A stretch of 64,000 bases of DNA from the human T2T-CHM13v2.0 reference genome, Homo sapiens. The DNA lies in the NCBI RefSeq assembly GCF_009914755.1, contig NC_060927.1; one strand, written 5' to 3'. The notes under the pieces are model-generated. The model was not told the origin of the DNA. It searched no databases and saw only the letters and a list, made by a program, of their open reading frames with translations. A program made the translations under genes and the position numbers. This document shows positions 35,542-40,236 of the stretch, one piece after another. How positions within the stretch are numbered: position 1 is the stretch's first letter; each line of letters opens with the position of its first letter.

Positions 35542-36465
35542 GGAGCACTTTTTAAAAAGTCAAATAGGGACTGTATTTGATGGCCACTTTGGAGTAAAAT
35601 TAATTTTACATGACAGATTAAATAGGAAAGCTGAAACTGAAGGTCAGACTGTACTTAGAGGACCCATCTAGTACTGTGGAACTTGTCAAATGTGTCCATT
35701 CCCTTGTGCCTAACAGTGAAATAGAGTGAGTTGTAAGAAATGAAGACACCCTACAAAAAGGAAAGCTTTTGCCAGGCGTGGCTCATGTCTGTAATCCCCG
35801 CACTTTGGGAGGCTGAGGTGGGTGGATCACGAGGTCAGGAGTTGGAGACCATCCTGGCTAACACAGTGAAACCCTGTCTACACTAAAAATACAAAAAATT
35901 AGCTGGCTGTGGTGGCACGTGCCTGTAATCCTAGCTACTCCAGAGGCTGAGGCAGGAAAATCGCTTGAACCTGGGAGGTGGAGGTTGCAGTGAGCCAAGA
36001 TCATGCCACCGTACTCCAGCCTGGGCGACAGAGACTCCGTCTCAAAAAAAAAAAAAAGGAAAGCTTCTATTAGACCAAAATAGCTTGGTACCTAAGGGAA
36101 TGGGAAGAGCAGCCAAATCAATGGTACGTGGGGTTTTCCTTTTAAAAGCACATTAAATAAAAACTTGAGAAGGGATCACTTTACCCCAGAGCTAATAATT
36201 CTGTCCTCTGGACCCAGACCTGGATGGTGAGCCTAGAGAGGTGGCCCAAATCTGTAGTTCAGCTCTTGAGCCATCGAGACCCCAAGTGCCTGACATTGAG
36301 TTTGGGTGCTGCAGGTGTGACATCTCCAGATTGTGTCTCCGGATGCTGTCAGGAGTAGGTTCTACTCCCTGATTTTCTTTGAATAGAACAAATTTTCCAA
36401 GTTTCACTTTTACTCCTCCCATGACTAAAAAGCAAGTGAATCTAGGAAAAGGTAAAACTAAAGAA
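35542..36465 (+). repeat. Long inverted repeat, left arm (intron 5; interrupted by an Alu)
   Basis: Reverse complement of 39308-40236 by manual alignment; no indels other than the Alus. Confidence 0.97.
35770..36052 (+). mobile_element. AluSc-like, inside the left inverted-repeat arm
   Basis: TSD aaaaaggaaagctt; absent from the right arm. Confidence 0.95.
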
Positions 36466-36676
36466 GAAGTGTGCTTTTGTTAAAAGGCTTTTGATTCATC
36501 ATGTACTTTGCTGATGTGATGGTTTAGCGCGTTCTCAGCCGAGCCCCTTGGAGGTAGTATCACTGCTCTTCATCTTTGTTCTCCCCCGTGCCTGGCGTTG
36601 AATTGGTGTTTCTTAATTGTTTCTTTTGTTCTGTGTAGTGACCCACTTGGAAAACACTTCTTTCTTTCAATTCTAG

Positions 36677-36786
36677 TATTTGGCATGATCATTACTATCG
36701 GCCAGTCTATCGTGTATGTGATGACCGGGATGTATGGGGACCCTTCTGAAATGGGTGCTGGAATTTGCCTGCTAATCACCATTCAG
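36677..36786 (+). CDS. SEC61A1: SEC61A1 exon 6 ([37 protein letters not shown])
   Basis: tag|TA...CAG|gtaat; within ORF 36598-36819. Confidence 0.97.
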
Positions 36787-37082
36787 GTAATTATTATGCT
36801 AACATCTCCCTTTGAGTAGCCCCTCACACTTACCTACAATTCTCACATAACGAATCTCAAGCACACCTAAAAGGAACTCCTACTGAAAGGAAGCAGAAGC
36901 CTAAGACTCTGGGTTAGCCCTCTGAATTCAGCAGAGAAAGGCTTTACTGACCGCTCTCTGGGGCTGAGGATGTGATCTCATTCCGTCTTCAGCGTTTATA
37001 TCAGAGAACCCAATTACTGAAGGACGGAACCATGTCCGTGGGGAGCAGTAACACATAGTCTTGTATTTTTGAATTTTTACAG

Positions 37083-37236
37083 CTCTTTGTTGCTGGCTTA
37101 ATTGTCCTACTTTTGGATGAACTCCTGCAAAAAGGATATGGCCTTGGCTCTGGTATTTCTCTCTTCATTGCAACTAACATCTGTGAAACCATCGTATGGA
37201 AGGCATTCAGCCCCACTACTGTCAACACTGGCCGAG
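37083..37236 (+). CDS. SEC61A1: SEC61A1 exon 7 ([51 protein letters not shown])
   Basis: cag|CTC...CGA G|gtaag; SecY signature [12 protein letters not shown]. Confidence 0.97.
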
Positions 37237-39307
37237 GTAAGGGCCCTGTGCTCCCCTGGTGGCGACAGCTTTCAGCAAAAACAATTGAGCAATGCAAAGC
37301 AGAAGACAAAAATCCCCCCATTCCACAGAAAAATAATGTCAGTTTTAGGTTTATCTCTTCTGGTGTTTGGGTCCATCTGCAAAGTTTTAAAAACACAAAT
37401 AGGCTTGTAATTATGATGATACCTAACTTGCACTTTTCATATAAAAATATCTCCTGGACGTTTGGCACGTCAGAATACACAATCCTGCCTCACTTTTCTT
37501 AGCACAGTATAAGCTTATATTGCAACGATAAAGCAACGTTAAGTCATTTCCAGGTTTTTTTATCGTTAACATTGAAACCATGACTGTCCTCATATGTTCA
37601 TCTTTGTATATTTTGGCAGCTGCTCTCAGTGAATAAGTTTCTAAAAATGAAATTCCTAAACCAAAGCACTTGGTCATGCAAGGGGCAGCTTTCTGAAAAA
37701 GGCCTGAACTTGGAGCTTAGCACCTGCGTTCAAATCCTGGCTGTTCCTGTTAGTCATACATACGTGGCTTTGGGCAGATTCCTGCACCACTGAATCTTGG
37801 TTACCAGGATGCAGTGAGAAGCAACATGAAATTACATGATGCCTGGCTCCTGGTAGATGTGTATCAAACATTGGCATGCTGTGCTACATCCACCAAGTGC
37901 CGTGGAAATCTTGTAACAGCATGTTTTTAATAAAAAGTTCAAAACATACAAGGGAAGCCTTAGAGAGTGTGACTTATTAGGGAAAGGAAATAAACATTTT
38001 TTGGCACTAAATATCTTCTTCACTGAGGAGCATTCCAGGAGAAATAATCATGCATATTTGAGAGTTTTCTTTTAATTGAATGTTGGAAACAGAGTCCTTG
38101 GCCTCCAGAGACCATATTATCTCATTAATGAGATGGAAAACTGGTCCCCAAACAAGTGAAGGCTGCATGTGCCTAACAGGTTACAAAGGAGAGTGGAGCT
38201 TGAGATAGGGAGCCATAGAGAAGAGTGGGCAAGATCACATTTGATGCTTCCTTGAGTACTTTGTATAAATTTAGGAAATCCAAGGTAAATTGGGAGAAGC
38301 AGGTCCAGAAGGCAAAGTTTGACAGGATGTGAAAAGGCAAGAGGGGGATGGCATTGTAGGAGTTCAGGTATTTGTCAAGACCATCATGGTGACTGGCTTT
38401 TGGGGAGTGCCTGAGTGGGAAGGAAGTAAAGTCAGAGGGGAGCCCCTGGTGGCTTAGCAGCCCAGTAGTAGCCGCCAGAGGCTCATGTTCCATTCTGCAG
38501 CAGGGCATTGAGTAATGGGAGCCAGAGTTTGGAAGAAGTGATTTGCTCTGCACTGAAAGGCAGAGAGAGCAGCTAGGTGCGTGCAGCAGTAATCCAGCCC
38601 CAATTAAGCCATCCTACAGGAGAGCACTGTGTGAGGGCATTTGGAGGAAGCAAGTTGAGAGAGGGGACCAGAGAGGCACTTTCAAGGTGGGGGAAAACTA
38701 AGAAGCAAAGGTGGATTTGTCTGGCCTTGAAGTCAGTGTGTCTACATGTCAGTTGCTCATGTTTGGGACCTGGCTGACACGAGATGCATTCAGGAAGGGC
38801 TGTGCCCCATGGCCTGCATGTGGGCAGTGAGTGGTGCTAGAGGGAGAGCCTAGGGAGGGGCAGGGAGAGCCACACAGAGGGCACAGCTGGGACGGCAGCT
38901 TTGCAGCTGTGCCTGGAGATGTTGCAGCTTGGCTTGGGACAGGGGAGGCTGTTGAATGAGATTCTACAGGCAGAGACAGTAATCACTGCTGCTTCCCTGG
39001 GCAGCAGGAACAATGCAGAACTGGGAATTAGTCCCAAATTTGAAACCGTGGGGAAACAGGCCAGCCTTGTCACACAGGACCAAAAGGTGGAAAGGATGGG
39101 AATTGACGAAAGACCGCCACAGGGTGAGATGAGGACATGATGGCCAGTTAGGATATGGTGTCTCTTTCACAGAAGCCACAGCAGAGGAGGTCAGTGGTCA
39201 TATTGGTTAGATGGTCTGCCTGACATGTCATCTCGGAATGGTCCAGGAAGATGTAGCAGGTGGTCCTAGCTATCACGTGTTAGAAACTTGGGAACAGTGC
39301 TTTTGAG

Positions 39308-40236
39308 TTCTTTAGTTTCACCTTTTCCTAGATTCACTTGCTTTTTAGTCATGGGAGGAGTAAAAGTGAAAGTTGGAAGATTTGTTCTATGAAAGGAAAA
39401 TCAGGGAGCAGAACCTACTCCTGACAGCATCCAGAGACACAATCTGGAGATGTCACACCTGCAGCACCGAAACTCAATGTCAGGCACTTGGGGTCTGGAT
39501 GGCTCCTGAGCTGAACTACAGATTTGGGCCACCTCTCTAGGCTCACCATCCAGATCTGGGTCCAGAGGACAGAATTATTACCTTTGGGTTAAAGTGATCC
39601 CTTCTCAAGTTTTTATTTAATGTGCTTTTAAAAGGCAAACCCCACATACCATCAGTTTGGTTACTCTTCCCATTCCCTCAGCTACCAAGTTATTTTGGTT
39701 GAATAGAAGCTTTCCTTTTTGTAGGGTGTCTTCATTTCTTACATCTCACTCTATTTCACTGTTAGGCACAAGGGAATGGACACATTTGACAAGTTCCACA
39801 GTACTAGATGGGTCCTCTAAGTACAGTCTGACCTTCAGTTTCAGCTTTCCTATTTAATCTGTCATGTAAAATTAATTGTACTCCAAAGTGGCCATCAAAT
39901 ACAGTCCCTATTTGACTTTTTGTTGTTGTTGAGACGGAGTCTTGCTCTGTCACCCAGGCTGGAGTGCATTGGCGCCATCTCGGCTCACTGCAACCTCCGC
40001 CTCCCGGGTTCAAGCAGTTCTCTGCCTCAGCCTCCTGAGTATGGGATTACAGGCGCCCGCCACCATGTTCGGCTAATTTTTTTGTATTATTAGTAGAGAC
40101 AGGGTTTCACCATCTTGGCCAGGCTGGTCTTGAACTCCTGACCTTGTGATCCGCCCGCGTCAGTCTCCCAAAGTGCTGGGATTACAGGCGTGAGCCACCA
40201 CGCCCGACTCCTATTTGACTTTTTTAAAAGTGCTCC
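39308..40236 (-). repeat. Long inverted repeat, right arm (intron 7; interrupted by an Alu)
   Basis: Reverse complement of 35542-36465. Confidence 0.97.
39921..40209 (-). mobile_element. AluSg-like, inside the right inverted-repeat arm
   Basis: TSD cctatttgactttt; absent from the left arm. Confidence 0.95.

What the first reader, a model, noticed from the sequence alone, without database searches (positions are those of the whole stretch)
35542..40236. ~640-bp non-Alu inverted repeat that exactly brackets SEC61A1 exons 6-7: a built-in circularisation/skipping stem
Seen: 35542-36465 (intron 5) is the reverse complement of 39308-40236 (intron 7), apart from one private Alu in each arm. The 2.84-kb spacer holds only exons 6 and 7, and the left arm ends ~210 nt before the exon 6 acceptor. 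I do not recognise the arm sequence as an interspersed repeat, so it looks like a locus-specific duplication. Established: reverse-complementary intronic sequences promote back-splicing and A-to-I editing, and human cases usually rely on more diverged Alu pairs. Inference: the pre-mRNA forms a long, near-perfect duplex that loops out exons 6-7 and gives an abundant circRNA. I recall a SEC61A1 circRNA (hsa_circ_0007841) being reported, which needs checking; the dedicated stem as its driver is the part that may be undescribed.
Basis: partly seen in the sequence, partly recalled or inferred. Interest (0 to 1): 0.82.

Follow-up and report, generated by a model that had tools for sequence, protein, structure and literature searches.

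The report
Unique inverted repeat flanking SEC61A1 circRNA exons
Two copies of a 630-base sequence found nowhere else in the human genome sit in opposite orientation on either side of SEC61A1 exons 6 and 7, the very exons that form an already published circular RNA, and they most likely drive that circle by pairing in the pre-mRNA.

Summary
35539-36465 (intron 5) is the reverse complement of 39308-40239 (intron 7): 629 aligned non-Alu columns, 32 mismatches. Each arm also carries its own Alu with target-site duplications. The whole T2T genome gave only these two copies. The 2842-nt spacer holds only exons 6 and 7.

In silico the arms form the strongest cross-exon duplex: -692 and -391 kcal/mol, against -447 for the best Alu pair. 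In the minimum-energy fold of 6.5 kb, 592 arm-to-arm pairs form while the Alus pair inside their own introns.

That the stem drives the circle is inference (about 0.6). "Abundant" is not shown. The mismatches show no sign of selection for pairing. None of ten literature searches gave a listed paper linking SEC61A1 to this repeat.

It is a new member of a known kind, complementary-sequence circularisation with an architecture like mouse Sry. Arm identity is uneven (99% against 93%), which suggests arm-to-arm gene conversion.

The parts
35539..35768 (+). Left arm, distal part (intron 5), 230 nt. It pairs with 39707-39921 and 40225-40239.
   Evidence: 215-nt block at 99% (2 mismatches) plus the outer 15 unique columns.
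35769..36052 (+). Private Alu inside the left arm. AluY-like by diagnostic positions recalled from memory. Its target-site duplication lies at 35755-35768 and 36053-36066.
   Evidence: sequence, poly-A tail and duplicated 14-mer; Alu catalogue; sub-threshold SRP/Alu matches on the + strand; empty site in the right arm.
36067..36465 (+). Left arm, proximal part, 399 nt. It ends 211 nt before the exon 6 acceptor and pairs with 39308-39706.
   Evidence: 93% identity, 28 mismatches, 12 of them in 36072-36137; duplex -692.5 kcal/mol, 377 pairs.
36466..39307 (+). Spacer (the loop), 2842 nt: end of intron 5, exon 6, intron 6, exon 7 and the first 2071 nt of intron 7.
   Evidence: 2842 nt between the arms; hub annotation; (AG|exon 6 and exon 7|GT splice sites).
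36677..36786 (+). SEC61A1 exon 6 (110 nt); its acceptor is the back-splice acceptor of hsa_circ_0007841.
   Evidence: Hub annotation. Searches give a 560-nt circRNA span, which equals 36677-37236.
37083..37236 (+). SEC61A1 exon 7 (154 nt); its donor is the back-splice donor.
   Evidence: Hub annotation.
39308..39921 (+). Right arm (intron 7), 614 nt without interruption; reverse complement of the left arm's two parts.
   Evidence: the only other genomic match is the left arm.
39922..40209 (-). Private Alu near the outer end of the right arm. AluS-like by diagnostic positions recalled from memory. Its target-site duplication lies at 39907-39920 and 40210-40223/4.
   Evidence: sequence; - strand; empty site in the left arm; 5.5% non-CpG divergence from the window's Alu consensus.
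40210..40239 (+). Outer remnant of the right arm beyond its Alu. It pairs with 35539-35568.
   Evidence: 30 nt, 93.3%, E=4e-8.

Best explanation
A stretch of about 630 bp of unique SEC61A1 intron sequence was duplicated in inverted orientation within the gene. One copy now lies in intron 5 and the other in intron 7, and each later received its own Alu.

Both arms are transcribed in the pre-mRNA on the same strand, so they can zip into a long intramolecular duplex. That duplex loops out exons 6-7 and brings the exon 7 donor next to the exon 6 acceptor, which favours back-splicing. The product is the 264-nt circle already catalogued as hsa_circ_0007841 (circSEC61A1, hsa-SEC61A1_0008).

Shown here: the repeat, its uniqueness, that both Alus came after the duplication, the exact bracketing, the identity of the published circle, and thermodynamic dominance of the stem. 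Inferred: that the duplex forms in cells and is the main cis driver. Also inferred: that the uneven arm identity reflects arm-to-arm gene conversion.
For: Anatomy: 629 aligned columns, 32 mismatches, E down to 1e-177.

Uniqueness:
- Whole-genome search found 2 candidates and scored both; they are the two arms.
- Sensitive blastn and nhmmer over the 64-kb window found only the arms. The next best hit was 47 nt at 70%, E=0.042.
- No Rfam family matched the non-Alu arms. 0 of 30 matches at E<=1 reached the gathering score, and the only one inside an arm had E=0.7.
- It is the longest inverted repeat in the gene. Of 3 pairs of 150 nt or more in 28000-48500, two are these arms.

The circle:
- PMC7307286 (passage) gives genomic length 560 bp.
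- The supplement of PMC13472853 gives chr3_128060102_128060661. It is the only SEC61A1 circle in that file (5 of 5 names, 4 of 4 coordinates).
- A circSEC61A1 is RNase R- and actinomycin-resistant in A549 cells (PMC11895971, passage; no circBase id is given there).

Energetics:
- Duplexes are -692.5 kcal/mol (377 bp) and -391.3 kcal/mol (213 bp). The five cross-intron Alu pairs range from -250 to -447 kcal/mol.
- In the minimum-free-energy fold of 34700-41200 (6501 nt), 592 of 671 cross-exon pairs are arm-to-arm in register. The flanking Alus pair within their own introns and the left-arm Alu folds on itself.

Precedent (passages of PMC4201285): mouse Sry circularisation needs its flanking inverted repeats, and 30-40 nt of complementarity can suffice elsewhere.
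Against: - No in-vivo evidence of the duplex could be reached: no editing, PARIS or deletion data.
- Kinetics. The left arm is transcribed at least 2.8 kb before the right arm, so intron 5 may be spliced out before the stem can form. This is an inference from established co-transcriptional splicing.
- Introns 5 and 7 are the two longest in the gene and hold 5 cross-intron inverted Alu pairs. These alone are the usual explanation for a human circle.
- SEC61A1 is very highly expressed (recalled), so low-rate back-splicing would be detected anyway.
- There is no wobble enrichment among arm differences: 7 G.U-type, 9 A.C-type, 16 transversion-type. Nothing therefore suggests the pairing is under selection.
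- A minimum-free-energy fold ignores helicases, ADAR and other proteins.
Confidence: 0.6

Rival explanations
1. Neutral relic. The inverted duplication is a by-product of a local rearrangement and has little effect on splicing. The exon 6-7 circle arises mainly because it is flanked by the two longest, Alu-rich introns of a very highly expressed gene.
For: - Five cross-intron inverted Alu pairs exist, the best at -447 kcal/mol.
- Introns 5 (3.26 kb) and 7 (4.2 kb) are the longest in the gene (hub table).
- Mismatches show no bias towards G.U.
- The count in blood is modest.
Against: - In the fold the flanking Alus are taken up by partners in their own intron and the left-arm Alu folds on itself, while the arms have no competitor in their own intron.
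- The arm duplex is about 2.4 times as stable as the best Alu pair.
- The arms lie nearer the exons than the other four flanking-intron Alus; the remaining two Alus are inserted within the arms.
- By Alu logic alone, circles of exon 8 or exons 6-8 (Alu at 42321-42605, - strand) would be as likely. Only the exon 6-7 circle appears in the papers and the supplement seen.
Confidence: 0.27
2. The stem mainly acts otherwise than through the circle. It could be a long intronic dsRNA that recruits ADAR or other dsRNA-binding proteins, or that promotes linear skipping of exons 6-7. Skipping is in frame and removes residues 118-205. Either way it would tune SEC61A1 output.
For: - Exons 6+7 total 264 nt, a multiple of three.
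- Long, near-perfect intronic duplexes are reported to be depleted or heavily edited in human genes (PMC7006430, abstract and passages).
Against: - The hub annotation lists no RefSeq isoform lacking exons 6-7.
- No paper listed by the searches links SEC61A1 to editing of this region.
- SEC61A1 is absent from the 3 held supplementary files of PMC7006430.
- Neither block meets that paper's class of over 300 bp and over 96%: one is 413 nt at 93%, the other 215 nt at 99%.
Confidence: 0.1
3. The arms are two independent copies of an interspersed repeat family, not a locus-specific duplication.
For: No RepeatMasker or Dfam was available. The genome search relies on shared exact words, so copies diverged by more than about 20-25% could be missed (tool text).
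Against: - Only two copies were found in 3.1 Gb.
- Members of an old family would differ by far more than 1-7%, and a young family would have more copies.
- The arms lack LTR-type ends, a poly-A tail and flanking target-site duplications.
- The arm has no long ORF. Of 11 stop-to-stop ORFs of 40 aa or more, the longest is 90 aa and overlaps the Alu.
Confidence: 0.03

Closest known systems
Mouse Sry circular transcript, flanked by a locus-specific long inverted repeat (Capel 1993 and Dubin 1995, as described in passages of PMC4201285)
   Same: Unique, non-interspersed inverted repeats flank the circularised exon(s). The proposed action is a stem-loop that brings donor and acceptor together. The complementarity here (629 nt) exceeds the roughly 400 nt reported as needed for Sry.
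   Different: - The Sry arms are over 15 kb and flank a single exon of a gene that is otherwise intronless. Here the arms are about 0.63 kb, lie in introns of a 12-exon housekeeping gene, are each interrupted by an Alu, and flank two exons.
- For Sry the requirement was shown by deletion. Here it is untested.
Inverted-Alu (IRAlu) and other complementary-sequence circularisation in human genes. Jeck 2013 and Zhang 2014 are recalled and were not read here. Liang & Wilusz 2014 (PMC4201285) passages were read.
   Same: Reverse-complementary sequence in both flanking introns, with competition between pairing across introns and pairing within an intron. Cross-intron Alu pairs are also present at this locus.
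   Different: - The main stem is not Alu. It is roughly twice as long as an Alu and more complementary (93-99% against 81% for the Alu pair carried in the arms).
- It has no partner within its own intron.
[quoted passage not shown]
Inverted MIR elements driving ciRS-7/CDR1as (PMC7371899, passages)
   Same: A non-Alu inverted pair in the flanks is required for a human circle. This was shown with a reporter and by CRISPR deletion, the same test proposed here.
   Different: MIRs are ancient interspersed SINEs with weak complementarity. The SEC61A1 arms are a two-copy local duplication with very strong complementarity.
Genomic palindromes and inverted segmental duplications with arm-to-arm gene conversion, such as the Y-chromosome palindromes (recalled, not read here)
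   Same: Two inverted arms around a unique spacer. Identity between the arms is uneven: 0.9% divergence in one block and 6.8% in the next, P=0.0006.
   Different: This one is a thousand-fold smaller and lies within a gene. Conversion is inferred from a single genome only.

Membership tests
Complementary-sequence (reverse-complementary-match) mediated exon circularisation | Reverse-complementary sequences in the intron upstream and the intron downstream of the circularised exons | tested here: met
   629 columns, 94.9% complementary, in introns 5 and 7.
Complementary-sequence (reverse-complementary-match) mediated exon circularisation | A circular RNA whose back-splice junction joins exactly the bracketed exons | tested here: met
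   Literature only. Searches give hsa_circ_0007841 as exons 6-7 with a 560-nt span. Searches give the same span in hg38 from RNA-seq callers. One search reports RNase R resistance of a circSEC61A1. No reads were examined here.
Complementary-sequence (reverse-complementary-match) mediated exon circularisation | Pairing across the exons outcompetes pairing within each intron | tested here: met
   In silico only. In the minimum-free-energy fold of 6501 nt there are 592 arm-to-arm pairs, and the flanking Alus pair within their own introns. The fold left out the first 1.3 kb of intron 5 and the last 250 nt of intron 7.
Complementary-sequence (reverse-complementary-match) mediated exon circularisation | Removing or inverting one arm abolishes or strongly lowers the circle | not testable with these tools
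   Needs CRISPR or a minigene. None of the ten literature searches gave a listed paper reporting it.
IRAlu-driven circRNA | The pairing elements are Alu SINEs in opposite orientation | tested here: not met
   The main stem has no Alu or SRP similarity. Alu pairs exist beside it, and one pair lies within the arms at 81% identity.
Sry-type locus-specific inverted duplication | The arms are unique to the locus, not members of an interspersed family | tested here: met
   2 of 2 genome-wide candidates are the arms. There is nothing else in the window. Caveat: old, diverged copies could escape the word-based search, and no RepeatMasker was run.
Inverted duplication evolving in concert (gene conversion) | Arm-to-arm identity is uneven beyond chance and is higher than the age of the duplication predicts | tested here: inconclusive
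   - Unevenness is significant. 2 of 215 against 28 of 413 mismatches gives Fisher P=0.0006, and the hypergeometric test gives P=1.7e-4.
- The right-arm Alu came after the duplication and is itself 5.5% diverged at non-CpG sites from a consensus built from this window. That predicts roughly 8-11% between the arms, against the observed 0.9-6.8%.
- The prediction rests on one genome and a rough consensus. Outgroup genomes are needed.

The most novel reading that the evidence does not exclude
The stem is a primate-born circularisation module of the Sry type. One local inverted duplication created the SEC61A1 exon 6-7 circle, and arm-to-arm gene conversion has since kept the arms complementary. 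That would explain the 215-nt block at 99% lying exactly between the two Alu insertion sites. If so, this would be a datable birth of a circRNA by a single structural mutation in an essential housekeeping gene. The same arms would also be a substrate for recombination that inverts exons 6-7, a recurrent loss-of-function allele of a gene whose heterozygous defects cause kidney and immune disease.
Probability: 0.15. Interest if true: 0.6.

Novelty: new member of a known kind. Interest (0 to 1): 0.4.

Why it matters
hsa_circ_0007841 is used as a cancer and blood biomarker in dozens of papers (40 hold the id). In the papers and passages read here, none says why those two exons circularise.

A unique, very strong stem offers a clean genetic handle. 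Deleting one intronic arm should remove the circle without touching the mRNA sequence, which is the control most circRNA function studies lack.

It is also a rare natural human counterpart of the Sry architecture. It is a test case for how long a duplex the nucleus tolerates in a highly expressed pre-mRNA, with respect to ADAR, helicases and innate sensing.

The principle itself, complementary flanks promoting back-splicing, is long established, so the gain is one well-defined instance rather than a new mechanism.

Tried and rejected
- Ivanov et al. 2015, a genome-wide study of reverse-complementary matches, is not held. Its tables, and those of Zhang 2014, could already list this pair. I could not see them.
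- Rfam gave nothing in the non-Alu arms. All 30 matches at E<=1 are sub-threshold, and all but one weak mir-991 hit (E=0.7) lie in Alus or at an Alu-Alu junction.
- Coding origin of the arm: only short stop-to-stop ORFs. I ran no Pfam scan on them.
- Selection for RNA pairing was tested through G.U-compatible differences and gave no signal, 7 against 9.
- A 9-nt direct repeat (GTGCTTTTG at 36471 and 39297) sits just inside both arms and was considered as junction microhomology. However, 272 of 20000 random window pairs from the two introns also share a 9-mer. Its orientation also does not fit a simple template switch, so I dropped it as evidence.
- I looked by eye for target-site duplications or LTR-type or poly-A ends around each whole arm. 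None was convincing, so the mechanism and direction of the duplication remain open.
- Editing literature: SEC61A1 with ADAR1 and dsRNA gave 6 papers (5 listed), and with A-to-I gave 2. All are irrelevant. The one checked concerns a mouse C/T site.
- A search for the coordinate strings of the circle found only the two myeloma papers.
- No other primate or mammalian genome was available, so presence or absence across species could not be tested.
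Full report
1. THE OBSERVATION

A scan for inverted repeats in 34500-41500 returned ten pairs. The two strongest are 36053-36465 with 39308-39720 (413 nt, 93%) and 35554-35768 with 39707-39921 (215 nt, 99%). 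The other eight are Alu-to-Alu matches.

blastn of 35400-36700 against the reverse complement of 39100-40500 gave the same two blocks, with E=1e-177 and 5e-111. It also gave a 30-nt outer block (35539-35568 with 40239-40210, 2 mismatches) and an 81% match between the two Alus.

Reading the sequence explains the layout. An Alu with a poly-A tail lies at 35769-36052 on the + strand, between two copies of a 14-nt target-site duplication (aaaaaggaaagctt). A second Alu lies at 39922-40209 on the - strand, between two copies of aaaagtcaaatagg. Each arm is uninterrupted at the place where the other carries its Alu, so both Alus entered after the arms existed.

Counting each duplication once, the arms align over 629 columns with 32 mismatches and no gaps. 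The spacer (36466-39307, 2842 nt) contains exons 6 and 7 and no other annotated exon. The left arm ends 211 nt before the exon 6 acceptor, and the right arm starts 2071 nt after the exon 7 donor (for the splice sites).

2. WHAT THE ARMS ARE

A search of the window's own assembly (3.1 Gb) with the right arm, and again with the inner left arm at E up to 10, found two candidates and scored both. They are the two arms. The tool warns that its first look depends on shared words, so old diverged copies may be missed.

A sensitive blastn (word 7) and nhmmer over the 64-kb window found only the arms. The next hit was 47 nt at 70%, E=0.042.

Rfam at E<=1 gave 30 sub-threshold matches. All are Alu/SRP-like or Alu-derived miRNA models, except one mir-991 match with E=0.7.

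The arm has only short stop-to-stop ORFs. It has no poly-A tail, no LTR-type ends and no convincing target-site duplication of its own.

Two copies at 93-99% identity, both within 5 kb in one gene, are best read as a local inverted duplication. I could not run RepeatMasker.

3. AGE AND EVOLUTION OF THE ARMS

Identity is uneven. There are 2 mismatches in the 215-nt block and 28 in the 413-nt block (Fisher P=0.0006). The chance of at most 2 of 32 mismatches falling in that block is 1.7e-4. The boundaries of the near-identical block are the two Alu insertion sites, which were fixed without reference to the mismatches. Twelve of the 28 inner mismatches crowd into 36072-36137, right after the left Alu (post hoc P=6e-5).

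The right-arm Alu came after the duplication. It differs at 5.5% of non-CpG positions from a consensus of the window's 21 full-length Alus. Two lineages of at least that age should differ by roughly 8-11%, which is more than the 0.9-6.8% seen.

My reading is arm-to-arm gene conversion, confined to the stretches between the Alu heterologies. This is an inference from one genome.

By recalled diagnostic positions the left Alu is AluY-like and the right one AluS-like. That would put the duplication in or before early catarrhine or anthropoid times. I could not check other primates.

Arm differences show no bias towards G.U-compatible changes in the sense RNA (7 G.U-type, 9 A.C-type, 16 transversion-type). 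Nothing therefore indicates selection for pairing.

4. THE CIRCLE IS ALREADY KNOWN

- PMC7307286 (passage): genomic length 560 bp, spliced length 265 bp. I count 110+154=264. The window span 36677-37236 is 560 nt.
- The supplement of PMC13472853 (passages) lists chr3_128060102_128060661 as hsa-SEC61A1_0008 in blood RNA-seq. It is the only SEC61A1 circle in that file (5 of 5 names, 4 of 4 coordinates). The main text says one of three callers put it just below the count filter.
- PMC11895971 (passages) reports a circSEC61A1 resistant to RNase R and actinomycin D, but gives no id or exons.
- Forty papers in the library hold the circBase id.

5. WHETHER THE STEM IS IN PRINT

The searches were as follows.
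- SEC61A1 with circRNA: 36 papers, 25 listed.
- The circBase id: 40 papers, 30 listed.
- SEC61A1 with terms for inverted or complementary flanks: among the 25 listed of 703, one review held SEC61A1, in a single line on drug resistance.
- circSEC61A1: 5 of 5 listed.
- SEC61A1 with ADAR1 and dsRNA: 6 papers, 5 listed.
- SEC61A1 with A-to-I: 2 papers.
- The coordinates of the circle: 2 papers.
- SEC61A1 with 'inverted': 117 papers, 30 listed, none on this by title or abstract.
- SEC61A1 with 'flanking intron': 7 of 7 listed, none on this.

Within that library I found no description of the repeat or of its role. Lists that I saw only in part, subscription journals, and genome-wide supplementary tables may still contain it. 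Ivanov 2015 is not held, Zhang 2014 was not seen, and the 3 held supplementary files of Barak 2020 lack SEC61A1.

6. HOW IT MOST LIKELY WORKS

RNAduplex gives -692.5 kcal/mol (377 pairs) for the inner arms and -391.3 kcal/mol (213 pairs) for the middle block. The five cross-intron inverted Alu pairs range from -250.6 to -446.6 kcal/mol.

The minimum-free-energy fold of 34700-41200 (6501 nt, -3015.9 kcal/mol) contains 671 pairs that span the exons. Of these, 592 are arm-to-arm in the two expected registers. The Alus at 34793 (-) and 35166 (+) pair with each other. The right-arm Alu pairs with the Alu at 40945 (+) in its own intron. The left-arm Alu folds on itself.

So the non-Alu stem is predicted to be the one structure that closes the loop around exons 6-7. 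That is the geometry known to favour back-splicing (passages of PMC4201285 on Sry and ZKSCAN1; PMC7371899 on ciRS-7).

Points against a strong effect:
- The arms are transcribed about 2.8 kb apart, so intron 5 can be removed first.
- Helicases and ADAR oppose long duplexes. PMC4201285 suggests this for ADAR.
- The circle is not shown to be abundant.

I put the stem as main driver at about 0.6. The Alu-and-long-intron explanation is at about 0.27.

7. COMPARISON AND VERDICT

In mechanism this belongs to complementary-sequence circularisation. In architecture it is closest to mouse Sry, with unique inverted arms rather than interspersed repeats, but on a much smaller scale and inside a multi-exon housekeeping gene. 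[quoted passage not shown]

Both the circle and the principle are known. What appears undescribed is the identification of this cis element, together with the signs that its arms evolve in concert. It is a new member of a known kind. Interest is moderate (0.4), mainly because it gives a clean, testable way to remove a much-cited circRNA without altering the mRNA.

Noticed in passing
window 36677-36786 + 37083-37236: The 264-nt exon 6-7 circle is a multiple of three. In the native SEC61A1 frame it has no stop codon around the back-splice junction, and it contains 4 Met codons, so the circle carries an endless open frame. This holds for any in-frame coding circle and is no evidence of translation.
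   Followed up: partly
window 36072-36137 (left arm) with 39636-39701 (right arm): Twelve of the 32 arm-to-arm mismatches crowd into 71 columns right next to the left arm's Alu insertion (17% divergence; post hoc P=6e-5). This could be a patch that escaped gene conversion and so shows the true age of the duplication, or it could be local damage at the insertion. It remains unexplained.
   Followed up: partly
window 36471-36479 and 39297-39305: A 9-nt direct repeat (GTGCTTTTG) lies 5 nt and 2 nt inside the inner ends of the two arms. 272 of 20000 random window pairs from the two introns share a 9-mer, so it may be chance. It does not fit a simple template-switch junction.
   Followed up: partly
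window 35539-36465 with 39308-40239: Differences between the arms are half transitions and half transversions (16 and 16). That is a low transition share for human neutral sequence. The numbers are small and I did not pursue it.
   Followed up: no
window 34793-35077 (-) and 35166-35386 (+): Two Alus in intron 5 lie in opposite orientation about 90 nt apart and pair with each other in the fold. Their junction at 35062-35181 gives sub-threshold Rfam matches to Alu-derived miRNA models on both strands (mir-1972, 40 bits against a gathering score of 90). This is an ordinary Alu hairpin.
   Followed up: no
window 41360-41795 (- strand) over SEC61A1 exon 8 (41452-41612, + strand): According to the hub table, an alternative RUVBL1 transcript has an exon at 41360-41795 on the opposite strand, overlapping SEC61A1 exon 8. 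The two genes therefore overlap tail to tail and could form sense-antisense RNA. Not examined.
   Followed up: no
window 36466-39307: Inverted arms of about 630 bp with a 133-nt perfect run around a 2.8-kb spacer could in principle recombine and invert exons 6-7, which would destroy the gene. Nothing in the data shows that this happens. Population long-read data would tell.
   Followed up: no
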